A stretch of DNA of 43,776 bases from a virus (Duplodnaviria; Heunggongvirae; Uroviricota; Caudoviricetes): the IMG/VR virus record IMGVR_UViG_2537562190_000013. One strand, 5' to 3'. Positions 1-24,212 of the stretch are shown here, one piece after another (the stretch's first letter is position 1; each line of letters begins with the position of its first letter). The position numbers and the translations under genes were made by a program. Below the pieces are notes generated by a model. That model had not been told where the DNA came from. It saw nothing but the letters and a program-made list of their open reading frames with translations, and did no database searches.

Positions 1-263
1 CAGCAGATTATCAGGCGCAACTGAAGCGGCATAATCTGCGTGGAAGTATGAGCGCAAAAGGTTGCTGCTACGATAATGCCTGCGTGGAAAGCTTCTTTCA
101 TTCGCTGAAAGTGGAATGTATCCATGGAGAACACTTTATCAGCCGGGAAATAATGCGGGCAACGGTGTTTAATTATATCGAATGTGATTACAATCGGTGG
201 CGGCGGCACAGTTGGTGTGGCGGCCTCAGTCCGGAACAATTTGAAAACAAGAACCTCGCTTAG
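1..263 (+). CDS. insF: IS3 transposase OrfB (InsF-like), C-terminal fragment, 5' end outside window
   Basis: Reading frame open from position 3; translation ...[45 protein letters not shown]... includes the DDE-transposase YDNA..E motif region. Confidence 0.8.
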
Positions 264-293
264 GCCTGTGTCCATATTACGTGGGTAGGATCA
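1..293 (+). mobile_element. IS3 element, right-end fragment (continues left of window); terminal inverted repeat ends ...GTGGGTAGGATCA at 293
   Basis: ORF at 1-263 matches the C-terminus of IS3 OrfB as I recall it; the following sequence ctcgcttaggcctgtgtccatattacgtgggtaggatca matches the IS3 right inverted repeat from memory. Confidence 0.8.
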
Positions 294-414
294 CGCAGGG
301 GTCGGCCCATTTGAGCTTCAGATAGGAACGTTTGAATTCCTTTCACAAAATACATCACATACTGAACGTGAACATTCCCACTTTGATCTTAAGGCCAAAA
401 AGTATGCAGGACTA

Positions 415-2133
415 ATGATTTTTAGGGATAGCTTGAGAGTATTACCTTATGGTCGAGTAGATAATGATTTCTTCCAGATAGAAGAAAGACGTTCATGGAA
501 TGCAGGGCGATATTATTGGTCTAATAGAAGGATTTTTGGTTATATTGGAATTACTCAATCCAGTAATAAAGAGCTGAAAGATAAGTCGGGGAGAGAGGGA
601 TTCATAAGAAACCAGGCTGCAAGAGAACTGAAAACTATTATATCTAATTTGTTAACTGAACTTGCTGATAGATTTTTTGGTTCACGTTCTGATGACCGTA
701 AAGAGCTTTTAGAACAAGTTAAGCGTGAAAAAGAGTTAAGAAAATCTGCTCAACAACAAGCTCGAAAATCAACACAAAAAAGTTTTTCAGAAGCTTTGAA
801 GAATCAGACACCAGTTCTTGATGCTTCCTTGGAGGCTGTTAAAAGGCTGAAAACTAAGCTTGATAAAACTGATGGTTCGTTAGATTTAAACTATCTTAAA
901 ATTATAGACAGTGATCTTACAAACTTAGATGCGTTGCGCAGTGAAATTAAAACGCCTATCAAACCTCCAAAACTTGGAATGTATGAAGAGAAATATAGAG
1001 ACTACAGAGATAAATTTAATGAGTTCTCTGCGTATATTCTACAAATGAAGTTAGCAATTAATAAACTTGATTCTGAATTAAATAAACTTGAGCCTTCATT
1101 GTCAGCGAAAAATCACCTTGAAAAAAATCAAGGTATTATTAATTCTAAACTAACTAAGTTTAATAACACGATAGAGGAGAAGATACATTCTCTTTTAAAA
1201 AAATGGGCCGATGAAATAAAGGTTGATCGAAGTGATTATTATGCTAAAACTATATCAGTTGTTGATTCAATAGATAATGATTCACAAATTGAAAATGTGT
1301 TTAATTTGCTCGATAGTTTATATGTTGAGTCAGTTGATACCCTAACTTTCAAATATCAATCAATAATAAAAGGTCTCGATAGATTATTTGAAGGTATAAA
1401 CTTAGATTCAGCATTCTCATTATCTGAAGAAGAACGCTCATATTTTGAAGAAAAAGCTAAAAGTTTAAACGCGCTTGCACAGTTAGGTATTAGTGTTGAG
1501 ATAATATCTCATGAACTTGAAGAAATGGATTCTATGGTAACCAGAGGACTAAACTCTCTTCCTACTTCTGTAAAAGAACACCCTGGTTTTTCATTGGCGT
1601 TAAATGCTCACAGATCGCTTACTCAACAAATACGTTTCTTATCACCTTTGAAAATATCAGGTTATCAATCCAGGCAGAGAATAACTGGAAAAAATATCAT
1701 GGATTATGTCCTGAAGTTCTTTGGGGAGCGTTTCGAACGGCAACGAATAACTATTGAATTTAGTGAAGAGTTTAAGCAAATCGCAATAACAGATATACCA
1801 TCAAGGATCTATCCTGTTTTTACTAATATTATCAACAATGCAATGTATTGGGTCAGTCTGTCAAATAATAGGCTCATAAAGATTGGTTTTGTGAATTCTT
1901 TGGTTATCATAGCAAATTCTGGTCCGGCAATTGATACCGATGATATCCCGCGACTATTTGAACTATTTTATAGCAAAAGAGCAAATGGACATGGGGTAGG
2001 TCTGTATCTATGTCGAGAAAACCTTGCTGTTGCACATCATAAAATATGGTATTTAGAACCTGATGAAGGCGATAACTATTTAATAAAAGATGGCGCTAAT
2101 TTTGTGATCCAGTTCAATGGAGTGGAGTTCTAA
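415..2133 (+). CDS. Cytoplasmic histidine-kinase-like protein: N-terminal coiled-coil-rich region, H-box-like ISHELEE, C-terminal HATPase_c (GHKL) domain
   Basis: 572-aa ORF; N-box-like NIINNAMYW, G1-like ANSGPAID and G2-like GHGVGLYLCRE motifs near the C-terminus; no obvious transmembrane segments; AT-rich codon usage; frame is open back to 334 with an in-frame stop at 331-333. Confidence 0.6.
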   Translation: MIFRDSLRVLPYGRVDNDFFQIEERRSWNAGRYYWSNRRIFGYIGITQSSNKELKDKSGREGFIRNQAARELKTIISNLLTELADRFFGSRSDDRKELLEQVKREKELRKSAQQQARKSTQKSFSEALKNQTPVLDASLEAVKRLKTKLDKTDGSLDLNYLKIIDSDLTNLDALRSEIKTPIKPPKLGMYEEKYRDYRDKFNEFSAYILQMKLAINKLDSELNKLEPSLSAKNHLEKNQGIINSKLTKFNNTIEEKIHSLLKKWADEIKVDRSDYYAKTISVVDSIDNDSQIENVFNLLDSLYVESVDTLTFKYQSIIKGLDRLFEGINLDSAFSLSEEERSYFEEKAKSLNALAQLGISVEIISHELEEMDSMVTRGLNSLPTSVKEHPGFSLALNAHRSLTQQIRFLSPLKISGYQSRQRITGKNIMDYVLKFFGERFERQRITIEFSEEFKQIAITDIPSRIYPVFTNIINNAMYWVSLSNNRLIKIGFVNSLVIIANSGPAIDTDDIPRLFELFYSKRANGHGVGLYLCRENLAVAHHKIWYLEPDEGDNYLIKDGANFVIQFNGVEF

Positions 2134-2134
2134 T

Positions 2135-3496
2135 ATGACAGTGGCAAATTATAATTCTCTTGTCCAGAAAACTTTCTGCGAAAATGCAATTCGTTCCGTT
2201 GTCATGATTGATGACGATTTTCTGACGTATTCTGAATCAATCAGGGCGTTGAATAACGAAGTTGATTTAGACTACAACAAAATTGACTCATCTAAACGAG
2301 CCGCTACTCTTGAGAGCTTTTTTCAATCTAAAAATATGATTTGTGATGTTGACAATGGTTCTGTTAATTTCGATGTGGATCGGATTAGAAAATCAGATCT
2401 TATTATTGTAGATTATCATCTTGATAATAATGCACCTGATAAAACACTTAAACTATTACAAGATTTGAAAGACTCCGATCATTTAAATATGATTGTAATA
2501 TATACTAGAGAGAATTTAGAAACGGTTTGGATGCAGATATCATCGACTCTCAAAGGTGCTCTGGATATCAACAGCTTGATCATTGACTACGATAATGAAG
2601 ATGTCCAAAGTTATTGGGAAGACGTTGTATTACCGAACTTAAATGATAATGGTAATAAAGCTCTCACAAGAGATGAAACAATAGCCTATATTAAAGACAG
2701 TAAGCCTTGTAGAAGAATTAAAAGATTAATACATGATGATGCTGTGTTGGAGGATCAAAAGGATAAAAACTTCATTGCAAAAATGATTGCAGAATATGCT
2801 GTGTCTAGAAATGCAATTATTTCTAGCAACACATCTGGCAATGTCATTCGGGGTGATGAAAGCGGAGTAAAATGGATTCAATGTGGTAATATCTTTGTCT
2901 CCCTATTTCATAAGGTTCAAGATGATCATGAAAACGATGGAGATAGGATTTGGCAAACTCTCAATGATTCTCTCATTGAATGGAAACCATCTTATTATCA
3001 GTTAATAAAATCTGAAATTCAGAATGCAATCGAAGCTGAGGCTTTATCTTTTGTAAATCATTTGGCTAACGATCATTACGGTCAAGCTGCGTGGTTAAAT
3101 GAGATATTAAAATCAGACTCGCCTGATATTAGATGTAGAAATATTGACTTTGTATTTGGTAATTTATCAGAAGAGCTTTATCAAAGACTTAAAAATAATA
3201 ATACGCTGGATGAATTTATCAAAAGTGTTTTTGATAGCTATTCAAATGAATACGCTAACAGCGGAGTTGCTGCATTGCTCCAATATTGCTCTTCAAAAAT
3301 GGATCTGCCATCAAATAATGATACTTATCACGAAATGTATCATGCTTTAAATATGAATTTGTCTTCAAAGAATTTTGAAGATGGTCATATTTCTACTGGC
3401 ACTATTTTCTTTGATACAGAGTCGAACAAATGGTATTTATGTGTATCTGCGGCATGTGATTTGGTTCCTACTCAGGGTAACGACCCTCACCATGTA
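2135..3496 (+). pseudogene. Receiver (REC)-like domain protein with large unknown C-terminal domain, 5' part; interrupted by IS629-like insertion
   Basis: ORF overlaps upstream gene (stop TAA 2131-2133, ATG 2135, GGAG upstream); REC-like motifs VVMIDDD ... DLIIVDYHL ... MIVIYT; the stop TGA at 3497-3499 is supplied by the first bases of the IS. Confidence 0.6.
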
Positions 3497-3538
3497 TGAA
3501 CCGCCCCGGGTTTCCTGGAGAGTGTTTTATCTGTGAAC

Positions 3539-4426
3539 TCAGGCTGCCAGATCATTATTTCCGATGGAAGCATAATAAGCTTTTTCTGCTTCTGCCGGAG
3601 GAATATGGCCCAGCCTTTCCAGCAATCGTCGATTGTTATACCAGTCCACCCACGTTAGTGTGGCCTGTTCCACTTCTGTCCGGTTTTTCCAGCTCTTACG
3701 GTGTATTACCTCCGCTTTGTAAAGACCATTGATGCTCTCAGCCATCGCGTTGTCATACGAGTCGCCAGTACTCCCTGTTGATGCCAGTAATCCGGCTTCC
3801 TTAAGCCGCTGCGTGTAGGCCAGCGATACATACTGAGAACCTTTATCACTGTGATGGATTGTGCCGGACGGCCGACGGGCCCACAACGCCTGCTCCAGTG
3901 CATCCAGCACGAATGTTGTTTCCATGGATGATGAGACCTGCCATCCCACGATGTATCCGGCGAACACATCAATGATGAACGCCACATAAACGAAGCCCTG
4001 CCATGTGCTTACCCAGGTAAAATCAGCCACCCACAACTGGTCTGGACGTTCTGCCACGAACTGACGGTTTACGCGGTCGCATGCGGCAACGGCTTTCCGG
4101 CTGACGGTAGTGCGGACCTTTTTACCCCGGAGAACACCGGCAAGTCCCATAACTGCCATGAGACGTGCCACAGTGCATCTGGCCACTCTGATACCTTCCC
4201 GTAACAACTGACGCCAGACTTTACGCACACCGTATACCTGGTGATTTTCATCGTATACGCGCTGTATCTCTTTCTTCAGCCAGTCATCGTGCTGCGCACG
4301 GGCACTGCGTTTATCCGGATGATGTCGCTGTTGCTGACAATGGTAATACGTTGACGGGGCAATATGCAGTTCGCTGCATACCGGTCCGACCCCGTACTGC
4401 TCACGCAGCTTATCCAGCAGTGGCAT
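3539..4426 (-). CDS. IS3-family transposase OrfB (DDE integrase core)
   Basis: 295-aa [16 protein letters not shown]...; DDE region ...SDKGSQY...YDNAMAESINGLYKAE... Confidence 0.85.
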   Translation of the reverse strand: MPLLDKLREQYGVGPVCSELHIAPSTYYHCQQQRHHPDKRSARAQHDDWLKKEIQRVYDENHQVYGVRKVWRQLLREGIRVARCTVARLMAVMGLAGVLRGKKVRTTVSRKAVAACDRVNRQFVAERPDQLWVADFTWVSTWQGFVYVAFIIDVFAGYIVGWQVSSSMETTFVLDALEQALWARRPSGTIHHSDKGSQYVSLAYTQRLKEAGLLASTGSTGDSYDNAMAESINGLYKAEVIHRKSWKNRTEVEQATLTWVDWYNNRRLLERLGHIPPAEAEKAYYASIGNNDLAA

Positions 4427-4752
4427 TATTTTTTCCAGAGGCGGTCGAACTCCGCCTTCGCAAAATAAGCGGAAGCCTGGCGAAGGATATCGTTACTGCG
4501 GCGCAGTTCACGATTTTCACGTTCCAGCTCTTTCAGACGCTGACGTTCAGCGGTGGTGAGTCCACCATCACCACTCCCGGTATCCCGCTCATGCTGGCGA
4601 ACCCAGACACGCAGAGTCTCCGGCGTACAGCCAATCTTTGGGGCAATGGAACAAATTGCCGCCCACTGTGAGTCATATTCATCCTGACTTTCCAGAACCA
4701 TACGAATCGCCCGCTGACGGACTTCGGGGGAAAAACGAGTATTTTTAGTCAT
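4426..4752 (-). CDS. IS3-family transposase OrfA (HTH, leucine-zipper region)
   Basis: 108-aa [22 protein letters not shown]...; overlaps orfB across an AAAAAA slippery stretch, typical of -1 frameshift-generated OrfAB. Confidence 0.85.
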
Positions 4753-4809
4753 CCTGTTTACCTCTTTCTCAGGGAGTTTAGTCTCCAGGATTTCCGGGGC
4801 GGTTCAGTA

Positions 4810-5196
4810 AGATTAAGTCCGCACAGGCTCATTAAAGTTCTGGAGCTTTTTAACGCCAGTCAGAGTAAAGCATTGCCATTTGCTGAACATTCGAAATATA
4901 TATATGTAATGCATAAAAATCAAAGAAAATATCTCTCTATTTTCGAAGGGGATAAAACGCTTCCTGTTGTTGATTATATGGTGGTGTTGAATCATGGAAC
5001 AACAGTTGATGGCGAAGAAAAAAATATTATTTCTGCCGTGTTTTTAAGTAATATGGATGGCAACGTGCAAAATGTTCCTGTCCGACTCAAACTTAAATCT
5101 CAACTGAGAACTGGTTATGCAGAAAGATATCAGGCTATAGCGTCTCAGTATAGCTCAAGGATTGGTGTGGATTATGTATCAATGATGCTACCATAA
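4810..5196 (+). pseudogene. 3' part of the IS-interrupted REC-domain gene (in frame with 2135-3496 once the IS and one GTA repeat are removed)
   Basis: Frame of 2135-3496 continues without stop from 4810 to the TAA at 5194-5196; the track ORF 4873-5196 is the tail of this frame. Confidence 0.6.
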
Positions 5197-5267
5197 TTAT
5201 TATATTTTAGGCGTGGTGATTTTTTTTCGCCATGCCTATTTTATATTTATCATCACAATGATGTTGT

Positions 5268-5684
5268 TTATTTTTGTTTAAGTCTTCTAAGCTTCATGCA
5301 TTCTAATGAGAATAATAATAGAGTTGTGCTGTATATAAAGCCAGAGTTAGTTAATAACTTTAAATTTAATGCTTCAGGATTTTCACTGAGAAAGTGAAAG
5401 GCATAAACTAAGTATACAGCTAAAGTAGCCGTTCCAATTGTTGGTCCAATATCGCCTTGATCATGAGGTTCAAGGTTTACATTGAACTTGAAGATTAGCC
5501 ATTCAAATCCCCAAGTAAAAAAAACAACTAATATCATGGCTGCGAATAATTTCGCGATGTTATCTGCTGATGGATTCATCAGAACAGATTGTTTCTGAAA
5601 AAATTCACAAAGTGAGAGTCCGAAAAAAATAAAAAAAAGTGGTCTGGAACTAAATTTTTCAAAAACTTTGAATAGGGTTTCCAT
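5268..5684 (-). CDS. Small hydrophobic (putative membrane) protein, unknown function
   Basis: 138-aa ORF with several hydrophobic stretches (FFIFFGLSLCEFF, AAMILVVFFTWGFEWLIF, ATLAVYLVYAFHF); AT-rich. Confidence 0.45.
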   Translation of the reverse strand: METLFKVFEKFSSRPLFFIFFGLSLCEFFQKQSVLMNPSADNIAKLFAAMILVVFFTWGFEWLIFKFNVNLEPHDQGDIGPTIGTATLAVYLVYAFHFLSENPEALNLKLLTNSGFIYSTTLLLFSLECMKLRRLKQK

Positions 5685-5740: not shown

Positions 5741-6952
5741 TTATCTTTGAGCTTGAACGTAATCACTCCACCATTGCATCAAACTCTGTCGCTCTATCAG
5801 ATATTCTGCACGATTGTATGCTGCGATAATTTCATCTTTTTTCGAGTGGGCAAGCGCTGCCTCAAGAACTTCAGCTCTGAATTTACCAGACTCCTCTGCC
5901 GCTGTTCGTGCAATAGAACGCATACCGTGAGCTACAAGCTCGCCTCCGAACCCCATTCGGATGATAGCTGCGTTGGCTGTTTGTTCATGCATATGATTAA
6001 GAGGCGCTTTTATGCTGGGGAAAACCCATTCTCTATGCCCACTTATTGATTTCATTAATTCAAGGATGCGCAAAGCTTCTTTACTCAAAGGAACTTTGTG
6101 AAGCTTTTTCATTTTCATGAAATCAGCAGGAATGTTCCAAATGCTGTTGGTTGTATCAATATCAGACCACCTTGCGCGAACGGCTTCACCCGGACGAACC
6201 CATGTCAACAATTGCCATTCAATTAGCATACGTGTTTCCAACCGGATTGACGCATTCGTCAAAGATTCCATAAACCTTGGCAATTCGCTTGGGGGAAGGG
6301 CAGGCATATTTTGCTTTTTTGGTTTACTGAATCTTTGACCAAGGTTGTCAGCCGGGTTGAACTCAATAAGTTCTTCAGTAGCTGCCCACCGGAAGATTTC
6401 ATTCAGACGTGAAATGATACGGCGTAGAGTTTCCAATACGCCTCGTTGCTCAATAGGATCAAGGTGTTGTTTTAAGAGCTTAGGTCGGATCTCATTGATA
6501 GGGACATTACCCAGACCGGGAAAGACATTTCTCTCTAAGCTGCGCCAGATGTCTGCTGCATGGTCTTGTGAGATACCTGATGTCTTTACCTTCTCATCTA
6601 ACCATTTCCGCGCTACGGCTTGGAGAGTGTGCTCAGTAGCACTCTTTAATGCCTTCGCCTTATCGTTGTTATGGATTTGGGGATCAACACCATTTGCCAG
6701 AAAGGAGAGATATTCATCACGTAAGGCTCTGGCTCTTGCAAGGGTAAGGTGAGGATATGTCCCAAGGCTCATTTTGGTTCTTTTCTTGCTCACTGGTACT
6801 GCATACCTGAAATACCAATTTTTCTTGCCTCCTTTCGCCAAAGGAGCGATTCGTAGAATCAGACCATCACCGTCAAACAAGTTGATTTCTTTATCGGCTG
6901 GCTTGGTGCTTTTGATTTCAGTGTCAGTGAGCTTCTTAGCGATTTTTGCCAT
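5741..6952 (-). CDS. int: Tyrosine recombinase / P4-type integrase
   Basis: N-terminal arm-binding-like MAKIAKKLTDTEIKSTKP...LFDGDGL; C-terminal catalytic-domain-like motifs; ATG at 6952 has a GAGGG ribosome-binding site; the track ORF extends to 6994. Confidence 0.85.
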   Translation of the reverse strand: MAKIAKKLTDTEIKSTKPADKEINLFDGDGLILRIAPLAKGGKKNWYFRYAVPVSKKRTKMSLGTYPHLTLARARALRDEYLSFLANGVDPQIHNNDKAKALKSATEHTLQAVARKWLDEKVKTSGISQDHAADIWRSLERNVFPGLGNVPINEIRPKLLKQHLDPIEQRGVLETLRRIISRLNEIFRWAATEELIEFNPADNLGQRFSKPKKQNMPALPPSELPRFMESLTNASIRLETRMLIEWQLLTWVRPGEAVRARWSDIDTTNSIWNIPADFMKMKKLHKVPLSKEALRILELMKSISGHREWVFPSIKAPLNHMHEQTANAAIIRMGFGGELVAHGMRSIARTAAEESGKFRAEVLEAALAHSKKDEIIAAYNRAEYLIERQSLMQWWSDYVQAQR

Positions 6953-7117
6953 TTTGGGACCCTCGGTTTTTGGACCCTTCTTAGTGGGTCCCATTCAGGG
7001 TGCCATAACTCGTAGTTCTCAGCAATTCTCACTGGACGACAATAGACGTAAAAAAGCCCGCAGAGCTTGTGCTGTGTGGGCTTAGTAGACTTCATTGAAC
7101 TTCAAACAACTAAAAAG

Positions 7118-7149
7118 TGGTGGAGCTGGCGGGAGTTGAACCAGCGTCC
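7118..7149 (-). other. att core: 32-bp copy of tmRNA (ssrA) 3' end (T-arm plus acceptor stem plus CCA), not a complete gene
   Basis: Minus-strand reading GGACGCTGGTTCAACTCCCGCCAGCTCCACCA; sequence further upstream does not continue as tmRNA. Confidence 0.7.
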
Positions 7150-7239
7150 ATTTGTTTTTAATTTATTGATTTTTATTGTTTTATTTTATTTCTCGCATGC
7201 TTCGTGTACTTCACGTATCCTTTTTAAGGAAATATATAT

Positions 7240-7905
7240 TTATGGATTCTTGCTTAAAAAATATTCGAAGTTATGGTTGCCAAGCACATACCTCATTTCT
7301 CCCCGTGTGCGGTAAAAAGAAGTTTGAATCTCATCAACATAGTAGTTAAAAAAAATCTTTAACATTTCGGTAGTCATCTTTTGCAAATGGGTTGACAGTT
7401 TAGCTGCATTACTTTTTGAATCAGACTTTAATAAATCTGGAAATGATGCTGTGATATTTAATTTAACTTTAGATGATGAGTGTAACCAGCCACATGCTTG
7501 TTTATACTGTGAATGCATGTACGCCCAGTTTTCATCAGTGTTGGTAGATTTAAGATTCTCGAAATCAAGAGTTCTAATTGTAATATCGAAATCCCCCCCG
7601 TTATCAACTTTTTGTAAGGATATACGTGCAAGATGTTCAATCATTGAGCGAAAATTAAGATGAAGATATCGCTCTCGTTTATGAAGTATCGCTGTAATTG
7701 AACTTAAAACATCATAAATAATACTTTTTATAAAGGTTTTGTGACTTATTTCTGGATGTGAGTTATGGATAAACTCCAGAAAAAGTACATGTTTATAAGC
7801 CGATGTAAGATTGTTTTCGGTGCGAATATCGACCTGAAATGATTTTATCATTGTGATAAATTCTTTCACGTCTTTTCTAAATCCATGTGGGTCTCTTTGA
7901 AGCAT
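7240..7905 (-). CDS. Hypothetical protein, third gene of ParA-like operon
   Basis: 221-aa ORF; start ATG overlaps upstream stop (TAATG); AT-rich; no recognised motifs. Confidence 0.55.
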   Translation of the reverse strand: MLQRDPHGFRKDVKEFITMIKSFQVDIRTENNLTSAYKHVLFLEFIHNSHPEISHKTFIKSIIYDVLSSITAILHKRERYLHLNFRSMIEHLARISLQKVDNGGDFDITIRTLDFENLKSTNTDENWAYMHSQYKQACGWLHSSSKVKLNITASFPDLLKSDSKSNAAKLSTHLQKMTTEMLKIFFNYYVDEIQTSFYRTRGEMRYVLGNHNFEYFLSKNP

Positions 7906-8318
7906 TATTTTCTATCCTTCTTCAAAAGAGCATTAATCCACGTACCTACATCTCGATTTGCATTACGTTTGACGTTACTTTTTTTAAAAGTAAGTGAGTT
8001 TTCATTATATCCAATAATAAATTTGTCAGTTTTAAAATACTCTGATGCTTTATATATGCATTCTTTAATGTCTCTCTCGCTCATATTTACAAGATTACGG
8101 GTAAGTCTAGCGCATAATAAAGTTCTTGACTTGATGACGTAGTCTAAGAAACTTAATCCAAATACATTTTTTACGAATTCTGCTGCATCTTCATTTTTAA
8201 CAAAAATTTCCCTAGAATAGATTGCTATTGTTATCAAACCAATAAACGCTTCTTTTGACGAGGGCTTCTTATAAACCAATGTCTGTAATAATTCGAGGTT
8301 GTTACTATTTTTATTCAT
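7905..8318 (-). CDS. Hypothetical protein, second gene of ParA-like operon
   Basis: 137-aa ORF overlapping ParA-like gene by 8 nt; AT-rich; no recognised motifs. Confidence 0.55.
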   Translation of the reverse strand: MNKNSNNLELLQTLVYKKPSSKEAFIGLITIAIYSREIFVKNEDAAEFVKNVFGLSFLDYVIKSRTLLCARLTRNLVNMSERDIKECIYKASEYFKTDKFIIGYNENSLTFKKSNVKRNANRDVGTWINALLKKDRK

Positions 8319-9162
8319 CTTCCCCCCCCGTTTGCACTTCTTGGATCCGACTTAAAAACTCTTCACAAATCGCTTTGATATATTTTCTGGATGATTTATA
8401 ACTTGATGATATATTACCTCTACCACCCACCATCAAATCCTGTACAAACTTCAACTGGTTATCAAAAAAGTATAGTTCATTAAAAGGTTCAGTACTTTCA
8501 AAGTCTGTCTTTAGCTTTTTTGTCTTTTTTGATAGATTTTCTAGGGTATTAGTATAAATAAAACCAAGGTTTTGAATGTTTTTATGGTCATAATTATCTT
8601 GAATGTTTTCTATTACGCTTAAAAGACTTGTCGCACCTAAAATTGAGTAGTGGTCAATTTTAACTGGCACAATATAATAATCTGAAGCAACGAGAGCTGC
8701 ATCAGTAAATAATGAAATGGTTGGTGGGCTATCGATCAAAATGAAGTCATATATATCTCGAAGCTTATGTTCTTCTATAAAGCGTTTTAGCTTATGTAAT
8801 CTTGCCGCAGGTTGTTCAATATCAAATATTGTATTAATATCACCAAAAATCATATCTAAGTGCTCTGACATCTTGATGATAATTTCATCAGGAGTGACCT
8901 GCTGAACTTTACCCGTTAAGCTTGATTTTGTCTCGAATATTCGTCTGATGGTTTTTGTATTTTCTAAGTGATCAGCTATATACTCTTTCACTCGATCATA
9001 TTTACTAAGTATTGACTGTGTAGCGTTAAATTGTGGGTCAATATCGATAATTAATACCTTTTTATCCATGAAGTTTGCAAGATATTCAGCAATGCCGACG
9101 CATAAAGTTGTTTTACCAACCCCACCTTTCATATTTATGAAACTTATTACTGGTGTAGTCAT
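8311..9162 (-). CDS. ParA/MinD/Soj-family P-loop ATPase (small, type Ib-like, no N-terminal HTH)
   Basis: Deviant Walker A MKGGVGKTT, A' motif IIDIDPQ, Walker B FILIDSPP; GGGA ribosome-binding site. Confidence 0.75.
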   Translation of the reverse strand: MTTPVISFINMKGGVGKTTLCVGIAEYLANFMDKKVLIIDIDPQFNATQSILSKYDRVKEYIADHLENTKTIRRIFETKSSLTGKVQQVTPDEIIIKMSEHLDMIFGDINTIFDIEQPAARLHKLKRFIEEHKLRDIYDFILIDSPPTISLFTDAALVASDYYIVPVKIDHYSILGATSLLSVIENIQDNYDHKNIQNLGFIYTNTLENLSKKTKKLKTDFESTEPFNELYFFDNQLKFVQDLMVGGRGNISSSYKSSRKYIKAICEEFLSRIQEVQTGGEDE

Positions 9163-9412: not shown

Positions 9413-10588
9413 CTACTTTTTGCAATTACTTGTGAGCGTTGTTGAGCTGTGGTTGTCATAATCACTCAAGTAACGCCCATAATGACGAAACAACATTTCG
9501 GGCCCCTTATGCCCCATCTGCCCTGCTAGCCAGAAGAGATTAGCTCCTTGGCTAATGTACTTAGTAGCATAAGTGTGCCTGGTCTGATATGGGTTTCTGT
9601 AGCGAATACCTGCTTTTCGCAATGTTGGCACCCATGCTTTTTTCCTGATTGCATCAGCACTTGCCCAAGGCTTATTGGTCTTTGGATCTTCAAAGACCGT
9701 AGCATCTTTCATGAACGTAAATGGCTTCTGATTTATCAGCGCCAACATTGCCTCTTCTGTCAGTTCAACTTTACGAGTACCGGCTTTTGTTTTGGTCCCT
9801 TTGATAACACCAACAACACTTGCGCTCTGGACATGTGCTGTTTTTCCAACAAAGTCGATATCACGCCATCGAAGGGCACATAGTTCAGAACTACGCAGGC
9901 CTGTATGTATAGCGAACCGGAACAGATTTTCCCATTGTTTGTTTCCGGCTGCTGCTAGTAATGCATCAACTTCTGCTGGTGATAGCGGATCAACCACATA
10001 GCTGCTTTCTGCTTCTGACTTATCACTTTGGTAGCGCGAAGCTGTTACTAACGATACGGGGTTAATTTGAAGTACCCCATCGGTCACGGCTTCATCAAGT
10101 GCTGACCGCAGGAAAGATAACTGGTTGCGAATGGTTTTTAAGGTTGTTTTCTGGCTTTGAATCCACGCTTTCAGGGTTGCTGGTGTTAATTCACTTGCAG
10201 GGCAAATGTGAAGTGAGGCTAACGCACTACGGCATTTTTTATAGCCACCAATCGTAGAGGGTGAAAGTTTTCTTGTTTCGCAGATTTCAAGATATTCGTC
10301 CAGGTACATCTTTACCGTTTTGCCTGCAGCAGCATTACCAAAAATTTTCAAACGAGCAGAACGGGGAAAATATTCTGCATAAATGAATGTTCCCCTTTCG
10401 ATCTTATTATGGATTTCGCCGAGTGTACGCTCGGCGTATTTAATGTTCTTTGGTGTTACTTCCAGATTGGAAAGCGGCTCACGACATCTAACTCCTTTGT
10501 AGGTGAAAGTTATATTGATCGTTTCGCCCTGGCGGTGTTTCCTGATTGTTACGCCGCGCGGTAGTTTGAGCAGTTTTGTCTGGCCCAT
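9413..10588 (-). CDS. int: Prophage tyrosine integrase
   Basis: 391-aa ORF with C-terminal catalytic-domain-like motifs (...HTGLRSSEL..., ...TRHTYAT..., ...LAGQMGHK...); overlaps the upstream xis-like gene. Confidence 0.85.
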   Translation of the reverse strand: MGQTKLLKLPRGVTIRKHRQGETINITFTYKGVRCREPLSNLEVTPKNIKYAERTLGEIHNKIERGTFIYAEYFPRSARLKIFGNAAAGKTVKMYLDEYLEICETRKLSPSTIGGYKKCRSALASLHICPASELTPATLKAWIQSQKTTLKTIRNQLSFLRSALDEAVTDGVLQINPVSLVTASRYQSDKSEAESSYVVDPLSPAEVDALLAAAGNKQWENLFRFAIHTGLRSSELCALRWRDIDFVGKTAHVQSASVVGVIKGTKTKAGTRKVELTEEAMLALINQKPFTFMKDATVFEDPKTNKPWASADAIRKKAWVPTLRKAGIRYRNPYQTRHTYATKYISQGANLFWLAGQMGHKGPEMLFRHYGRYLSDYDNHSSTTLTSNCKK

Positions 10589-10755
10589 TTTGCAACCTCA
10601 CTAAGATCAATCCACCTCTCCTTAACGCCTTCAACCTTTAAAACCTGAACACCTTCACGCCAAACACCGCGCTGTACACGTTTGTTTATTGCTTCAGGAG
10701 TTTCGCCAGTTTCTTTGCAATAAGTTGAGATAGGAACACAATCGAGGTTCAGCAT
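10549..10755 (-). CDS. xis: Excisionase-like small DNA-binding protein
   Basis: Small basic ORF overlapping the int 5' end, the usual xis-int arrangement. Confidence 0.6.
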   Translation of the reverse strand: MLNLDCVPISTYCKETGETPEAINKRVQRGVWREGVQVLKVEGVKERWIDLSEVAKWARQNCSNYRAA

Positions 10756-10814
10756 ATGTTTCTCCACTTAGCCCGCTGCACATGGGCAGTAATATCAAAT
10801 TCCAGTCCTGATAA

Positions 10815-11030
10815 TTAATTTTGTTCTCTGGTTGCTACTTGTTTTATTGGCCTGATGCTGTCCAGTAGCAGACGGCGACGCATGTTAGGTGCACCCCAAC
10901 GGTAACCAGTCTTTTTGTCGTAGGATTCACAACGTCCGGCAACCCAGGACGTTTCAGTGGAATGTAATTTCATCCGCTTTTCACCGTCTCGGGTGATAAC
11001 AATTCCTGTATGAGTTTTTATCACGCTCAT
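10815..11030 (-). CDS. Hypothetical early-left protein (YfdT-like)
   Basis: 71-aa ORF, stop/start coupled to the next gene. Confidence 0.4.
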   Translation of the reverse strand: MSVIKTHTGIVITRDGEKRMKLHSTETSWVAGRCESYDKKTGYRWGAPNMRRRLLLDSIRPIKQVATREQN

Positions 11031-11389
11031 TTCTTAGTCTCTGGTGCTTTCGGCATTACTGCCCAGTGAGTGATATTGACGTTTTCAAGGTCCCCGACCT
11101 GAAATGTCCACTGCCATTCTCCGGTTTCTTTTTGTCCCCAGGTGTACCAGAGAGAACGCCAGCCAATCAGCCAGCCTTCTCCGTTAGCATCAAATAACAG
11201 AACACTTTCATTTGCTGGAGGCAGTTCAGCTGACACTGGTATTATTTTGCTTTCCAGTGCCGCACATTTAGCTTCAAGCGCGTCGAATTTACGTACCAGG
11301 TACTCAGCATTTGTTTCGTTCACTTTCAGATCTCGCGGTACACATCTCCCACGAAGAAACCCTTCCATTTCGAAAACATTCATGCGCAT
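11027..11389 (-). CDS. Prophage protein with DUF551-like C-terminal region (YfdS-like)
   Basis: 120-aa ORF; Trp-rich C-terminal segment WLIGWRSLWYTWGQKETGEWQW. Confidence 0.5.
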   Translation of the reverse strand: MRMNVFEMEGFLRGRCVPRDLKVNETNAEYLVRKFDALEAKCAALESKIIPVSAELPPANESVLLFDANGEGWLIGWRSLWYTWGQKETGEWQWTFQVGDLENVNITHWAVMPKAPETKK

Positions 11390-11928
11390 TTGCGTAACTC
11401 CGATAACTCGTTAAAACGTTCCATAAACATCCCGTAGGCATGGCCCGGTGCCAGTGGAATCACGTTGAACATCTCTGTTGCCGGGATGCCTTCCAGTACA
11501 GGCCAGAAAGAGCCATCATCAAGCCCGAGATCGCGGCGTTCGGTTGCCAGCATGATGAGATCGGCATATTTCACAGGCGTGCTCATAACCGGGGGTAACC
11601 CGTATTTCTCACGGATTACGGCGTCTATTTTTTCTTCCATCCGTTTATAGTCAGGAAGAAGGCGTTTCAGTGGTGCGGGGATGTCCTGGCAATACGCTTC
11701 TGTTGCATCATGCATTAACGCTTCAAAAGCAAATTCCTGCGGTACCAGCTGGCTGCAAAGCACCGCATGTTGGGCGACGCTGTAGAAGTGTGAAAGATGG
11801 CCGGCAAAGCGACAGATATTTGAAAGGGAAACCGCGATATCGTTAATATCGATGTTGTCTTTATTTATCCTGTCATAATAAAAATGCTTCCCGGAAAAAG
11901 TTTTAATAAATGACATTTTGTTCTCCAC
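11380..11928 (-). CDS. yfdR: HD-domain phosphohydrolase (YfdR-like 5'-deoxynucleotidase family)
   Basis: H..H and HD motifs (VAQHAVL, LMHDATEAY); translation matches recalled CPS-53 YfdR. Confidence 0.65.
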   Translation of the reverse strand: MENKMSFIKTFSGKHFYYDRINKDNIDINDIAVSLSNICRFAGHLSHFYSVAQHAVLCSQLVPQEFAFEALMHDATEAYCQDIPAPLKRLLPDYKRMEEKIDAVIREKYGLPPVMSTPVKYADLIMLATERRDLGLDDGSFWPVLEGIPATEMFNVIPLAPGHAYGMFMERFNELSELRKCA

Positions 11929-12044
11929 GTTATATGCGCTGCACCGCGCTGAATTTTGGTTAAAGAAAACCCTCGCCTTCAGGCGATTATTGAGTCAATT
12001 ACGTTTCCATAAATGCCCCCGCAGGGGCATTTGCGGTAATGAAA

Positions 12045-12869
12045 TCAGGCGGTGAAAGTCCCAATAAAGGTTTCTACTTTGCTGTCCTTGAATTTCTCAA
12101 CAAGCAGATCACGAAATTCGTTAGCCATATCTTCCTGCACCGCTTCCAGCTGAATAATGCGTAGAACCAGTACCGGACGATCGCCAGTGATAATGCTGAG
12201 GCGTAATTTAAACGGACGTTCTTTCAGACCTTCAAACGGAACGCATTTAAACTCAAATGCCACTGGCATAATGTCTTTGGTCTTCGCTTCGACAGACTCC
12301 ATCAGGGAGCGTTTGCCGCTGAAGTCATTATCTTCAAAATCAGCAGTCTGGTTTGCTTCAATCGTGATTTTACGGACCGCCGCAGCCGCTTTTGTTGCCT
12401 GAATGGTGTCACCATTAGCATCAAAGCCCACAAGGTAGTCGGCCCAGTCTTCAATCCATTCTGCCAGTGACTTCTGGGAGTTACGCTCGCCATTAACAGA
12501 CAACAGAGCAGAGAACGGCGCTGCCTTTTTCAGTTTGAGAGTGGCGGTGTTATCTGCGTGACCTGGTTCATCAATAGTACCCAGGTTAAGCACACTGACG
12601 GCACGCATATTATCAGCATCGATAAAGCAGCGGGTGCCTTCATCTGCAAGATCTTTAGAATAACGGGTAAAGTCATCGATGCTGGCAGTGGAAAGCGCAC
12701 CACGGAAACGGAAGCGATTTAAATTAAATTTTTCCAGATCATGAATGCGGAAATTTTCAGGTAATGCCACTGCGTCGGCACCAATCTTACTGATAATTTC
12801 ATTAACACCCTGAGCAGAAATAAGGGCATGGATTTGATTAATTGCGGTTGCGTCTAAGTTCTGAGACAT
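12045..12869 (-). CDS. yfdQ: DUF2303-family prophage protein (YfdQ-like)
   Basis: 274-aa ORF; recalled similarity to CPS-53 YfdQ. Confidence 0.55.
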
Positions 12870-12933
12870 AATAAGTCCTCACTATATAAAATATTCAGTG
12901 ATGAGATAAATAATCAGTTAATTAAAAACGATA

Positions 12934-13314
12934 TTAATGACCTGCTGCGCGGAGTTTTCCGTCAGGTTCACCGGCAAGAGTCAGTAATTGTCCCTGGTCT
13001 TCCTGCAGAATAGTCAGGCGACCACCGCGATTGACATACATCGGCGTTTCGGTGGTGTCTTCTTCAGAAATTTTCCCGCGGTTAGTCGGGCGAACATATG
13101 AGAGTTTGTGTTTGATTTTCACACGGTTCTCATCAAATGGTTCGATTTCCAGGTTGAGTGAGACCTTACCTTTGGTTTTCGTGTTCATCACACCGGAAGC
13201 GACTTCACTGAGAACTGCGCCGATTTTGGTTTCAAATACGCCGCCGTCCAGCTCCCCGATAAATGCCTGCACATCAGTACTGCGTTCGCTAGCCATTTTG
13301 CTGCTCCTCATCAT
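12934..13314 (-). CDS. Hypothetical early-left protein (YfdP-like)
   Basis: 126-aa ORF. Confidence 0.45.
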   Translation of the reverse strand: MMRSSKMASERSTDVQAFIGELDGGVFETKIGAVLSEVASGVMNTKTKGKVSLNLEIEPFDENRVKIKHKLSYVRPTNRGKISEEDTTETPMYVNRGGRLTILQEDQGQLLTLAGEPDGKLRAAGH

Positions 13315-13733
13315 ATCGACCCTGCAAGGCCGATTAGTTTCTCCACAAAACAGAGAAGAACACCTGCGGTGGCAGCCGCCCGGATGGATTGGGTTATGAG
13401 CCCGTCGTCCGGTGATGCTCTTCTCTGTTTTGTAAAAAGGACGCTACCAGCCGGAAGCAAGGGTACAAACTGGTACCGCCAGGACTACACACAGCATAAA
13501 GTTGTGGTGCCGGGTGCCTCCCGGTGCCTGGCGAAGGTTGCACACCAGACGGGTGGGTATCCACAGAAGGTCGACTGTCAGCCTCAACCTTAACCCGCGT
13601 GCGCTGAGCCGCATTCACCACAACGCTAAGGATTCTCTTTGGTTGAAAATACTTAGCTGTTATGTGCCTGTCTTTTCACCACTTCAGGCTCGGTGGTATC
13701 CTTTTAAGCCCGTATACATAAAAGGAAAATCAA

Positions 13734-13979
13734 ATGACTTTTGATGAAAAAGAACTTGATAATGCAATTAATAAAATCATCGTAACGTCGCTCTTTTCCT
13801 GTCTCAGCGACACTCAGCAGAAACGGTTCTACGAATCGGCTTTCAACATGATCGAGCGTTGTTGTTTCTGCGATGCCGACGAGTTACCTGAAAAAATCAG
13901 GAAACAGTTGGCTGATGCTCTTCGAGTGCGACTTTCTGACCAATTTTCTGAAATGTGCTCTCCGAATTTGGACAAATAG
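13734..13979 (+). CDS. Hypothetical small protein
   Basis: 81-aa ORF with AAGGA ribosome-binding site 7 nt upstream; convergent overlap with 13897-14172. Confidence 0.4.
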   Translation: MTFDEKELDNAINKIIVTSLFSCLSDTQQKRFYESAFNMIERCCFCDADELPEKIRKQLADALRVRLSDQFSEMCSPNLDK

Positions 13980-14172
13980 AAAAAGGCCATTTCCATTCAG
14001 GGTCTGATGGAAATACTTCAGCCTGTTCCAAAGCACGGCGTAAAGAGAACACAACTCCAGCCATAATCTGATGTTTCCCATTGGTCCAGCTATCGCCGCT
14101 CTGATCTACAGGGGCGGCTATGTCGTATGACCAAACGACTTCACAGTTATTGTTTAAAATCTGGACTTTCAT
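13897..14172 (-). CDS. Hypothetical protein, first gene downstream of the putative leftward early promoter (N/rex position), not N-like
   Basis: ATG at 14172 with AGGTG ribosome-binding site; 91 aa; no arginine-rich motif. Confidence 0.45.
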   Translation of the reverse strand: MKVQILNNNCEVVWSYDIAAPVDQSGDSWTNGKHQIMAGVVFSLRRALEQAEVFPSDPEWKWPFSICPNSESTFQKIGQKVALEEHQPTVS

Positions 14173-14299
14173 TTCATACACCTGCTTTAACATGAGTGCC
14201 TGATGGCACAACATGACTCAACGAATCATCCTGGACTTCATATGCCCCAGGCGGCTACTTCGTGGGCGTCCTGCCTGTTCGTTATCTTTGATATAAAAT

Positions 14300-14313
14300 C
14301 TAACTTAACTTAG
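14300..14313. promoter_or_regulatory. Operator-like site CTAACTTAACTTAG (oL-like) overlapping a candidate leftward promoter
   Basis: Shares the CTAA-N5-CTTAG pattern with the two sites in the cI-cro intergenic region. Confidence 0.45.
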
Positions 14314-14378
14314 TTATTATGGCAAGAGAAAACACCAAACTTTTCTTAGTTCGGTGCCTTAGTTAGAGAAGAGAGGTC

Positions 14379-15005: not shown

Positions 15006-15027
15006 AGGAGCACCATTTCTTGAATTG

Positions 15028-15090
15028 CTAAGTAATCTTAGTTTTTATTGACCAAAGATAGATTTGTAATTAGCATCTAATAAAACTTAG
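15028..15090. promoter_or_regulatory. oR-like operator region: two 14-bp sites CTAAGTAATCTTAG (15028-15041) and CTAATAAAACTTAG (15077-15090) between cI and cro
   Basis: Palindromic half-sites CTAAG/CTTAG in the divergent promoter region. Confidence 0.5.
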
Positions 15091-15102
15091 TTTGGAGGGC
15101 GT

Positions 15103-15303
15103 ATGACAACTGACGATATCGAAAGCTACTTCGGCAGTATTGAGAAAGTTGCTGCTTTTTTCGGCATAACAACTGAAGCCGTTTATCAGTGGCGAAACCG
15201 TCCGGGCCAGTTAATTCCAAAAGGACGTGCAGCAGAAGCTGCATATAGAACTTGCGGACGGTTGCCATTTAAACCTGAGCTTTATGAAAAATCTAATGGA
15301 TAA
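15103..15303 (+). CDS. cro: Cro-like small HTH regulator (YdaS-like)
   Basis: 66-aa ORF, GGAGGG ribosome-binding site, divergent from cI; HTH-like segment AAFFGITTEAVYQWRN. Confidence 0.7.
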   Translation: MTTDDIESYFGSIEKVAAFFGITTEAVYQWRNRPGQLIPKGRAAEAAYRTCGRLPFKPELYEKSNG

Positions 15304-16227: not shown

Positions 16228-16236
16228 AGGTCGGTC

Positions 16237-19031: not shown

Positions 19032-19050
19032 TTAAGAGGAGAAACGAAGT

Positions 19051-19848: not shown

Positions 19849-19849
19849 G

Positions 19850-20845: not shown

Positions 20846-20847
20846 TT

Positions 20848-22413: not shown

Positions 22414-22415
22414 TA

Positions 22416-24209: not shown

Positions 24210-24212
24210 TTT

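What the first reader, a model, noticed from the sequence alone, without database searches (positions are those of the whole stretch)
7118..7149. 32-bp tmRNA 3'-end core marks a tandem integration junction between two elements
The minus strand reads GGACGCTGGTTCAACTCCCGCCAGCTCCACCA, a T-arm plus acceptor stem plus CCA that matches the ssrA 3' end as I recall it, with one mismatch. It sits directly upstream of the P4-type integrase on one side and abuts prophage DNA on the other, with no complete tmRNA gene. This fits an SfV-like phage integrating into ssrA next to an older P4-type island, so that this copy serves as attR for the phage and the attL remnant of the island. The intact ssrA would then lie beyond the right end of the window.
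Basis: partly seen in the sequence, partly recalled or inferred. Interest (0 to 1): 0.5.

Follow-up and report, generated by a model that had tools for sequence, protein, structure and literature searches.

The report
Prophage attachment scar from tmRNA gene
The 32-base piece of the tmRNA gene is the ordinary end-scar (attR) left where an SfV-like prophage inserted into ssrA ahead of an older, decayed P4-type island. This is a well-known kind of tandem array at a well-known hotspot.

Summary
Window 7149..7118 (minus strand) reads GGACGCTGGTTCAACTCCCGCCAGCTCCACCA. That is 31 of 32 bases identical to the 3' end of the strain's own ssrA. It is unique in the window, and the window holds no whole tmRNA gene.

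In the closest complete genomes (E. coli O103:H2 type) the intact ssrA lies about 6.4 kb beyond the right end of the window, in the same orientation.

All four att sites could be lined up:
- **attR:** the window junction.
- **attL:** the intact ssrA.
- **attP:** found in a 44.6 kb circular phage record that carries the identical integrase and excisionase.
- **attB:** ssrA joined directly to the island leader, seen in 983 of 5426 E. coli genomes.

The arms swap as site-specific recombination predicts, at 100/100 or 99/100 identity. The single mismatch (T) comes from attP, so the exact identity block is the last 25 bp of ssrA.

The prophage is 97-98% identical to SfII, SfI, SfIV and SfV in its late genes. 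Its ssrA-specific integration module is different from theirs and resembles that of phages phiNP and LLS. The island has a P4-type integrase (48% identical to IntA of CP4-57), no distal repeat, and an IS3-truncated far end.

Already known; low interest.

The parts
7118..7149 (-). Displaced 3' fragment of ssrA (T-arm, acceptor 3' strand, ACCA). It is the core of attR of the SfV-like prophage and also the attL core of the P4-type island.
   Evidence: 31/32 identical to the intact ssrA and 32/32 identical to attP of the circular record.
7118..7142 (-). The 25-bp block of exact identity between attP and attB (GGTTCAACTCCCGCCAGCTCCACCA). Strand exchange must have taken place inside it. A T-loop crossover is inferred, not shown.
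   Evidence: The T at 7143 stays with the int-side arm and the G stays in the intact ssrA.
7143..7143 (-). The single mismatch to ssrA (T in place of G). It derives from attP and is shared with the attP of the circular record L003 and with the end of the phiNP record, but not with phage LLS.
   Evidence: It creates a GCTGG/CCAGC dyad in the folded 32-mer.
7150..7239 (-). AT-rich arm of attP on the integrase side, running from the stop codon of the last cargo gene to the core.
   Evidence: Window 7150-7249 is 100/100 identical to L003 17923-18022. The megablast match of window 5500-10700 to L003 and to four of the five phage-only chromosomes (H11-H15) starts exactly at window 7118; in H16 it starts at 7125.
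7044..7117 (-). Leader of the P4-type island. It follows the CCA of intact ssrA directly in phage-free genomes and ends in a terminator-like hairpin (stem 7068-7054) with a T run.
   Evidence: It is also the part that matches the 3' end of Salmonella IsrM.
5741..6994 (-). P4-type tyrosine integrase of the island. The RefSeq start corresponds to 6952. In this window a T at 5742 creates a stop codon six codons earlier than in NZ_CP027219.1.
   Evidence: Arm-DNA-bind_3 + Phage_int_M + Phage_integrase; 48% identity to K-12 IntA; sequence differences.
1..5684 (.). The rest of the decayed island: end of an IS3 copy (1-263), HEF_HK/HATPase_c protein (415-2133), Response_reg_2 protein (2117-3499 plus its remainder at 4807-5196) split by an IS3-family element (3539-4752, ALIL pseudoknot at 4355-4471), and a 138-aa unknown protein (5268-5684). 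No distal ssrA repeat.
   Evidence: collinear at 98.8-99.9% with the phage-free locus L004 apart from the 1.3 kb IS; no second core copy.
7240..9162 (-). Three-gene cargo operon of the prophage between attP and int: ParA-like ATPase (8311-9162), a 137-aa protein (7905-8318) and a 221-aa protein (7240-7905). GC content is 32-34%. It is transcribed toward the att core.
   Evidence: The identical proteins sit next to the same integrase in L003 and L005.
9413..10588 (-). Prophage tyrosine integrase specific for ssrA.
   Evidence: Arm-DNA-bind_2 + Phage_int_SAM_5 + Phage_integrase; phrog_1; same protein accession (WP_000531803.1) as in the circular record; 91% identical to the phiNP integrase and 85% to that of LLS.
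10549..10755 (-). Excisionase (68 aa), overlapping the start of int.
   Evidence: phrog_2917, E = 7.7e-44; same accession (WP_001331174.1) in the circular record.
10756..43776 (.). The rest of the SfV/SfII-like prophage: early region, cI/cro, replication genes, Q, an AT-rich moron pair, lysis genes, terminase, HK97-type head, contractile tail, baseplate and the start of the tail fibre. The prophage continues about 6.4 kb beyond the window to attL at the intact ssrA.

Best explanation
The 32-mer is the distal attachment junction (attR, in ssrA orientation) of a roughly 43 kb SfV/SfII-like prophage. The phage integrated by tyrosine-integrase site-specific recombination into the 3' end of the tmRNA gene ssrA.

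The phage attP carries its own copy of the ssrA 3' end. Recombination inside the 25-bp identity block rebuilt a wild-type ssrA at the proximal junction, about 6.4 kb beyond the window. It also pushed the original 3' end of ssrA to the far end of the prophage, together with everything downstream of it. Before integration, a decayed island with a P4-type integrase lay directly after ssrA. The same core therefore now also sits where that island's attL core was.

Shown here: the sequence relationships of attL, attR, attP and attB; the identity of the integrase and excisionase with those of a circular form; and the state of the island.

Inferred: the order of arrival (island first), a crossover in or near the T-loop, and that this particular prophage can still excise.
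For: - **The fragment:** real, unique and non-random; no tmRNA gene in the window.
- **Intact ssrA:** a gene with tag ANDENYALAA lies in the same orientation beyond the tail-fibre end in the closest genomes.
- **Four-way arm comparison:** attR left arm = attP left arm, 100/100. attR right arm = attB right arm, 100/100. attL left arm = attB left arm, 100/100. attL right arm = attP right arm, 99/100. Unrelated arms agree at 26-30/100.
- **attP:** comes from a 44,611-bp circular record with the same integrase, excisionase and cargo proteins.
- **attB:** ssrA fused to the island leader covers at least 80% of a 268-nt composite query in 983 of 5426 complete E. coli genomes. One example carries the same island with the same IS3-truncated end.
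- **This exact attR junction:** found in 9 of 5426 genomes.
- **Integrase relatives also carry the ssrA 3' end:** the LLS record annotates a 'tmRNA pseudogene' and an attP. The phiNP record ends exactly on the 25-mer.
- **Literature:** ssrA is the most enriched tDNA integration target, and tandem arrays at tDNAs are routine (PMC4383910; PMC3603311; table 1 of PMC10107115).
Against: - No direct evidence was available that this prophage excises; there are no reads and no PCR.
- In the closest genomes several tail-fibre genes are frameshifted and some carry an IS inside the prophage, so the phage may be defective.
- The circular record is a mosaic relative with lambda-like tail genes, not the same phage.
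- The island has no distal repeat, so by the strict Islander criterion for a tandem array (each member has its own fragment) only the phage qualifies.
- The window's own source genome was not identified exactly. It differs by 3 substitutions in 16.8 kb and by an inverted tail-fibre segment from the best matches. The location of its ssrA is therefore taken from near-identical genomes.
Confidence: 0.93

Rival explanations
1. Reverse order of arrival. The phage integrated first into an otherwise free ssrA, and the P4-type island later integrated into the phage's displaced 32-mer (attR) rather than into the intact gene.
For: The final structure at this junction would be the same. Precise excision of the phage would regenerate the ssrA-island junction seen in other genomes. 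K-12 shows that either order occurs at this locus: there CP4-57 is next to ssrA, and a remnant of a phage of this att family (152-nt arm, then ypjA, then pinH) lies distal to it.
Against: The island is a remnant without a distal repeat. Its far end is cut by IS3 inside ygaQ. The same truncated configuration is collinear at 98.8-99.9% in a phage-free genome. The direct ssrA-island junction is in 983 genomes, against 9 with this phage junction. New arrivals normally use the intact tDNA.
Confidence: 0.05
2. The junction is, in addition, a functional RNA element. The ssrA fragment plus the island-derived terminator would form the 3' end of a transcript, either an IsrM-like sRNA or the 3' UTR of the ParA cargo operon, with a regulatory role. 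This would add to the att-site explanation, not replace it.
For: Window 7050-7272 (minus strand) matches Rfam IsrM at 58.3 bits, E = 1.7e-15. IsrM is a 329-nt Salmonella RNA detected in experiments, encoded between STM2762 and STM2763 (PMC2330248). Its consensus contains the displaced fragment CGCCAGC-----CA listed for LT2 element Stm27X, followed by the same CTTTTTAGTTG leader. The cargo operon is transcribed toward the fragment, and the first terminator-like hairpin downstream is at 7068-7054.
Against: The score is far below the family's gathering score of 376. The 5' two thirds of IsrM are not matched. No sigma-70-like promoter was found in 6900-7500. The shared part is explained by shared descent of the island leader. 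No expression data are available.
Confidence: 0.08
3. The 32-mer is what remains of an ssrA gene destroyed by deletion or rearrangement, or is a chance similarity. It would not be a product of site-specific recombination.
For: Only that no complete tmRNA gene is present in the window.
Against: There were no chance matches in the shuffles. An intact ssrA exists nearby. The break in similarity falls exactly at the ends of the att core, with reciprocal arm exchange across attL, attR, attP and attB.
Confidence: 0.01

Closest known systems
psaA, the 14-nt 'pseudo-ssrA' at the distal end (attR) of cryptic prophage CP4-57 in E. coli K-12
   Same: It is a displaced 3' fragment of ssrA that marks the far end of an element integrated in ssrA, at the same chromosomal locus (smpB-ssrA ... 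ygaQ-glaH).
   Different: psaA belongs to a P4-type element and lacks T357, so excision of CP4-57 inactivates tmRNA (PMC10107115). Here the fragment belongs to an SfV-like phage and its last 25 nt are identical to ssrA, so excision should leave ssrA wild type. The order of elements is also reversed in K-12.
attP of Escherichia phage LLS (annotated 'tmRNA pseudogene') and the ends of Citrobacter phage phiNP
   Same: The integrases are 85% and 91% identical to the prophage integrase. An ssrA 3' end lies next to int. LLS shares the 152-nt arm that follows the CCA. phiNP shares the T mismatch.
   Different: The cargo between int and attP differs, and the rest of the phages was not compared. LLS carries a longer and differently diverged ssrA-like stretch (39 nt).
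Serotype-converting Shigella phages SfV, SfII, SfI and SfIV
   Same: The packaging, head, contractile-tail and baseplate genes are 97-98% identical at the nucleotide level. The early region is about 95% identical.
   Different: The int/att module and the neighbouring cargo are not shared; matches start only at about window 10815. From my own knowledge, not tested here: these phages integrate at thrW and carry gtr O-antigen modification genes next to attP, whereas this prophage uses ssrA and carries a ParA-like operon.
[quoted passage not shown]
   Same: An intact tDNA, then an element, then a tDNA fragment, then the next element with its own integrase. ssrA is the most enriched target. Arrays of two or more islands were counted 125 times among 3919 islands (PMC4383910).
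   Different: The second member here has lost its own distal fragment. Williams 2003 itself could not be read.
The IsrM sRNA locus of Salmonella Typhimurium (Rfam RF02763)
   Same: It looks like the analogous junction in the LT2 ssrA array: a degenerate ssrA fragment followed by a homologous island leader and terminator, upstream of an integrase gene.
   Different: Only the 3' third or so is homologous, and the score is 58 bits against a threshold of 376. No expression is known for the E. coli junction. The LT2 sequence itself was not examined.

Membership tests
Displaced tDNA fragment that marks the end of an integrated element (att site, Islander/Williams definition) | An intact cognate tDNA on the same replicon, in the same orientation as the fragment | tested here: met
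   ssrA lies on the minus strand at NZ_CP027219.1 1032670-1033032, with tag ANDENYALAA. This was tested in near-identical genomes, not in the window's own source.
Displaced tDNA fragment that marks the end of an integrated element (att site, Islander/Williams definition) | The fragment reproduces the 3' end of the tDNA up to its last base | tested here: met
   31/32 identical, with the last 25 nt exact and ending on CCA.
Displaced tDNA fragment that marks the end of an integrated element (att site, Islander/Williams definition) | A tyrosine integrase gene lies between the tDNA and the fragment | tested here: met
   int at 9413-10588 and xis at 10549-10755.
Displaced tDNA fragment that marks the end of an integrated element (att site, Islander/Williams definition) | attP and attB can be reconstructed by exchanging the arms, and both exist in nature | tested here: met
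   attP is in circular record NZ_CP148393.1. attB is in 983 genomes. Arms match at 99-100/100.
Displaced tDNA fragment that marks the end of an integrated element (att site, Islander/Williams definition) | Excision and integration demonstrated for this element | not testable with these tools
   This needs PCR or read-level data. The only proxy is a circular relative with the identical Int and Xis.
Tandem array at a tDNA (each member with its own integrase and its own tDNA fragment) | The second member has its own integrase | tested here: met
   A P4-type integrase at 5741-6994.
Tandem array at a tDNA (each member with its own integrase and its own tDNA fragment) | The second member has its own distal tDNA fragment | tested here: not met
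   No further copy of the 19-mer or 25-mer core, allowing up to 3 mismatches, in the window or in the 21 kb to its left, which L002 covers down to proX. The far end is IS3 plus a truncated ygaQ.
tmRNA gene (Rfam RF00023) | A full tRNA-like domain plus the tag reading frame, scoring at or above gathering | tested here: not met
   10.1 bits against 47; ARAGORN finds none.
P4-type integrases (the island integrase) | Domain architecture Arm-DNA-bind_3 (DUF4102) + central domain + catalytic domain, and similarity to a named member | tested here: met
   Pfam E-values 2e-22, 3e-23 and 2e-19. 48% identity over 401 aa to IntA of CP4-57.
SfV group of Shigella/E. coli temperate myoviruses | Shared structural and early gene modules | tested here: met
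   97-98% identity over 76-98% of window 26000-43776; about 95% over the early region.
SfV group of Shigella/E. coli temperate myoviruses | Same integration module (int and attP) | tested here: not met
   No nucleotide match to these phages left of about window 10815. The best integrase matches are phiNP and LLS.
IsrM sRNA (Rfam RF02763) | Match at or above the gathering score over the whole model | tested here: not met
   58.3 bits against 376. Only the 3' part aligns convincingly.

The most novel reading that the evidence does not exclude
The attR junction has been co-opted as an RNA element. The cargo operon reads through the AT-rich arm and the ssrA T-arm/acceptor fragment and stops at the terminator supplied by the island. 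The resulting 3' end would be homologous to the Salmonella virulence sRNA IsrM. IsrM would then itself be a transcript of an ssrA-array junction. The E. coli junction could yield an sRNA or a tRNA-like 3' UTR with a regulatory role that is created or destroyed by phage integration and excision.
Probability: 0.06. Interest if true: 0.4.

Novelty: already known. Interest (0 to 1): 0.1.

Why it matters
The main value is for annotation. The 32-mer fixes the left end of a roughly 43 kb SfV-like prophage to the base. It separates that prophage from a decayed P4-type island that could otherwise be merged with it. It also shows that the AT-rich ParA-like operon is phage cargo and not island DNA.

It is a clean example of module exchange. 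A phage nearly identical to the Shigella serotype-converting phages carries a different integration module and different cargo at the same position.

The displaced copy matches ssrA over the whole identity block. Excision should therefore leave tmRNA intact, unlike excision of CP4-57 in K-12. None of this changes current understanding of tDNA-targeted integration.

Tried and rejected
- **Distal repeat of the island.** I searched for a second core copy with the 25-mer and the 19-mer, allowing up to 3 mismatches, in the window and in the 21 kb to its left. There was none.
- **Finding the Salmonella IsrM locus.** A scan of genome contigs with 21 nt of the island leader gave only three loci, from Raoultella, Photorhabdus and a metagenome-assembled genome. 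The LT2 junction therefore could not be read directly.
- **Williams 2003 (PMC142792).** It is not held. Its content is cited only through other papers.
- **Promoter at the junction.** The scan of 6900-7500 found none.
- **Defence-system models.** PADLOC named no system for the ParA operon, the island cargo or the AT-rich pair at 21199-23591. The only hit was a weak P-loop match.
- **Arm-type integrase sites in attP.** The repeat search gave only one weak candidate pair, GACGGTG..GACAA, 62 nt apart on the arm distal to int. I do not build on it.
- **CP4-57 itself.** I considered that the island was CP4-57. This is rejected: the integrases are only 48% identical, and the leader and cargo differ.
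- **Source of the window.** I first assumed it was NZ_CP027219.1. That is not exact. That genome has an extra IS inside the prophage, 3 substitutions in 16.8 kb, and the tail-fibre segment in the other orientation.

Full report
**Observation.** The minus strand of window 7149..7118 reads GGACGCTGGTTCAACTCCCGCCAGCTCCACCA. With up to three mismatches it occurs once in the window, and no dinucleotide-preserving shuffle gave a match. ARAGORN finds no tRNA or tmRNA gene in the window. Rfam at gathering thresholds finds only an ALIL pseudoknot of an IS3-family element at 4355-4471. In a permissive scan the fragment scores 10.1 bits against the tmRNA model, whose threshold is 47.

**Where the window comes from, and where ssrA is.** Window 5500-10700 matches nine complete E. 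coli chromosomes over its full length at 99.9-100% (eight at 100.0%, one at 99.9%). Three of the nine are labelled O103:H2 or O103. Against NZ_CP027219.1 the first 16.8 kb of the window differ at three bases. In that genome the intact ssrA is at 1032670-1033032 on the minus strand, the same orientation as the fragment. smpB lies beyond it, and ARAGORN reports the tag ANDENYALAA. Between the end of the window and ssrA lie the rest of the tail-fibre region, pinE, a GIY-YIG protein, a Dcm-type methyltransferase and a type II restriction endonuclease. After correcting for an IS that this genome carries inside the prophage and the window does not, and for an inverted tail-fibre segment, the 3' end of ssrA lies about 6.4 kb beyond window position 43776. 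The last 32 nt of this ssrA are GGACGCGGGTTCAACTCCCGCCAGCTCCACCA. The fragment therefore differs at one base: T for G at the seventh position, window 7143.

**The four att sites.** A 44,611-bp circular record, NZ_CP148393.1, deposited as a plasmid, is a phage genome. It encodes the same integrase (WP_000531803.1), excisionase (WP_001331174.1) and three cargo proteins as the window. In it the 32-mer, with the T, is flanked on one side by the window's 7150-7249 sequence. On the other side is ATCATGATTGGACGGTGTAAGG..., which is the sequence that follows the intact ssrA in NZ_CP027219.1. A composite query of the ssrA 3' end joined directly to window 7117..6980 finds a contiguous match covering at least 80% of the query in 983 of 5426 genomes. 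The top hits match at 100% over all 268 nt. One of these (NZ_CP026085.1, L004) has ssrA followed at once by the same integrase, the same 138-aa protein, the same kinase and receiver pair, IS3, truncated amylase and glaH.

I anchored the four junctions on the core and compared 100 nt on each side:

| Comparison | Identity |
|---|---|
| attR left arm vs attP left arm | 100/100 |
| attR right arm vs attB right arm | 100/100 |
| attL left arm vs attB left arm | 100/100 |
| attL right arm vs attP right arm | 99/100 |
| unrelated arms | 26-30/100 |

This is the reciprocal arm exchange expected of integrase-mediated recombination. The T travels with the int-side arm (attP and attR) and the G with ssrA (attB and attL). 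Strand exchange therefore lay 3' of that base, inside the 25-bp block GGTTCAACTCCCGCCAGCTCCACCA. That block begins two bases before the T-loop. From the general pattern described for tDNA-targeting integrases (Williams 2002, own knowledge), a T-loop crossover is likely but was not shown here.

**The element on the right.** The integrase at 9413-10588 has Arm-DNA-bind_2, SAM-like and catalytic domains. The 68-aa ORF overlapping its start is an excisionase. The late region, 26000-43776, is 97-98% identical over 76-98% of its length to Shigella phages SfII, SfI, SfIV and SfV and to Escherichia phage vB_EcoM-689R6. The early region is about 95-97% identical to the same phages. 'SfV-like' is therefore correct for most of the genome. 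The integration module is not shared, because matches start only around window 10815. The nearest integrases in the phage collection are those of Citrobacter phage phiNP (91%) and Escherichia phage LLS (85%). The LLS record annotates a 'tmRNA pseudogene' and attP next to int and shares the arm beyond CCA. The phiNP record ends exactly on the 25-mer and also has the T. The integrase clade is thus ssrA-specific. Between int and the core lies a 32-34% GC operon encoding a ParA-like ATPase and two unknown proteins. It is found with the integrase in the circular record and in other chromosomes. On the other side of attP the first 152 nt, ending in a terminator, are conserved, and after that the cargo varies.

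**The element on the left.** The ORF at 5741-6994 has the P4-type domain set and is 48% identical to IntA of CP4-57. It is a distinct P4-type element, not CP4-57, because the leader and the cargo differ. Its cargo is a HEF_HK/HATPase_c protein and a Response_reg_2 protein, the latter split by an IS3-family insertion. The island is collinear at 98.8-99.9% with the phage-free locus L004 apart from that 1.3 kb IS. No second copy of the core exists in the window or in the 21 kb to its left. The far boundary is an IS3 abutting a truncated ygaQ-type amylase gene. In K-12, ygaQ lies well beyond the ssrA array. The island's distal end was therefore most probably removed by an IS3-associated deletion, and the island is immobile.

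**Order of events.** Three points indicate that the phage entered the intact ssrA in front of a pre-existing island. First, the island remnant, with the same truncated end, is present next to ssrA in a phage-free genome. Second, the direct junction is about a hundred times more frequent than this phage junction: 983 genomes against 9. Third, the phage lies next to the intact gene. The reverse order cannot be excluded on structure alone, since precise excision would regenerate attB. K-12 shows that the reverse arrangement occurs at this locus. There the CP4-57 attR fragment (psaA) is followed by the same 152-nt arm, then ypjA, then a pin pseudogene.

**Comparison with what is known.** Integration of phages and islands into the 3' end of ssrA, the displaced fragment, and tandem arrays are textbook features. 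ssrA is the most enriched tDNA target, and tandem arrays are handled explicitly by Islander (PMC4383910). ssrA is one of two sites in E. coli and Salmonella with extreme diversity of integrated elements (PMC3603311). Many ssrA-linked elements and their displaced fragments are tabulated (PMC10107115). Stx phages at ssrA have been reported in O111 EHEC (PMC2323221). In contrast to CP4-57, whose excision deletes T357 and inactivates tmRNA, the displaced copy here is identical to ssrA throughout the block in which exchange occurs. Excision is therefore predicted to leave ssrA wild type.

**A side observation at the same coordinates.** The permissive Rfam scan matched window 7050-7272 (minus strand) to the Salmonella sRNA IsrM at 58 bits, E = 1.7e-15, far below the gathering score of 376. 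The aligned part is the ssrA remnant plus the island leader and terminator. IsrM is encoded between STM2762 and STM2763 in LT2. Its consensus reads ...GACGCCAGCCAC UUUUUAGUUG.... That is the displaced fragment CGCCAGC-----CA listed for LT2 element Stm27X, followed by the same leader as here. IsrM therefore looks like a transcript of the analogous junction in the Salmonella ssrA array. Whether the E. coli junction is expressed is unknown, and no promoter-like site was found nearby. A Photorhabdus contig carries the same kind of junction, a 29-nt ssrA fragment plus the same leader.

**Verdict.** The identity block is 25 bp. The integration module is not SfV's. The island lacks its own distal repeat. 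This is a well-understood feature, useful for delimiting the two elements but not novel.

Noticed in passing
window 43628-43776 (and L001 8107-9925): The window ends inside a Pin-type invertible tail-fibre segment that is flipped relative to the closest complete genomes. Window 43300-43647 equals L001 7779-8126 on the forward strand. Window 43628-43776 equals L001 9906-9757 in reverse, at 98% identity. The 20-nt overlap is the presumed inversion site, and pinE lies next to the segment.
   Followed up: partly
window 7050-7272 (-): A partial Rfam match to the Salmonella sRNA IsrM (58 bits, E = 1.7e-15, gathering score 376). The shared part is the ssrA remnant plus the island leader and terminator. 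IsrM appears to be a transcript of the analogous ssrA-array junction in LT2.
   Followed up: partly
window 7240-9162 (-): An AT-rich (32-34% GC) three-gene operon between attP and int: a ParA-like ATPase (283 aa), a 137-aa protein and a 221-aa protein (phrog_164, phrog_6264, phrog_7540). There is no Pfam domain for the two small proteins and no PADLOC system. The same cassette is on a 44.6 kb circular record deposited as a plasmid. A partition role (episomal maintenance) or a defence role are both open.
   Followed up: partly
window 415-3499 and 4807-5196 (+): The island cargo is a pair with HEF_HK/HATPase_c and Response_reg_2 domains. It looks like a kinase-receiver conflict or defence module rather than a classical two-component system. 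The receiver gene is split by an IS3-family element at 3539-4752. It is intact (1749 nt) in the phage-free locus L004.
   Followed up: partly
window 21199-23591 (-): An AT-rich (35% GC) pair on the opposite strand between the Q antiterminator and the lysis genes: a 404-aa unknown protein (phrog_5023) and a 391-aa NA37-family nucleoid-associated protein. It looks like a moron at a typical cargo position.
   Followed up: partly
window 5742 and 6871: The window's P4-type integrase differs from that of NZ_CP027219.1 by two substitutions. The T at 5742 creates a stop codon six codons before the reference stop.
   Followed up: partly
window 7118-7149 (-), position 7143: The attP-derived T turns the T-stem dyad GCGGG/CCCGC into a longer dyad, GGA-GCTGG / CCAGC-TCC, around TCAACTCCC. 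The predicted fold changes from -11.0 to -12.8 kcal/mol, with a z-score of -3.35. The T is shared with phiNP but not with LLS. It could reflect core-type integrase binding sites in attP.
   Followed up: partly
L001 10580-14436 (beyond the right end of the window): The cargo between the tail-fibre/pinE module and attL is a GIY-YIG protein, a DNA cytosine methyltransferase and a type II restriction endonuclease. Other phages with the same att module carry unrelated genes at this position, after a conserved 152-nt arm.
   Followed up: partly
L005 (NZ_CP195362.1) 5848-6123: In strain 24AR0142 the same int-side arm and core are followed by the other arm of attP and by a second pinE/tail-fibre module. 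The junction is of attP type and lies inside the chromosome, which suggests two phages of this att family in tandem.
   Followed up: no
L008 22973-23137 and L013 (E. coli K-12): In K-12 the CP4-57 attR fragment psaA is followed by a 152-nt stretch that is 89% identical to this phage family's attP arm, then ypjA and the pin pseudogene pinH. K-12 seems to keep a remnant of a phage of this att family distal to CP4-57, the reverse of the order in the window.
   Followed up: partly
L011 (Photorhabdus heterorhabditis) 2680-2760 (-): A 29-nt ssrA 3' fragment, preceded by AT-rich DNA and followed by a nearly identical island leader. This is the same kind of junction in another genus.
   Followed up: no
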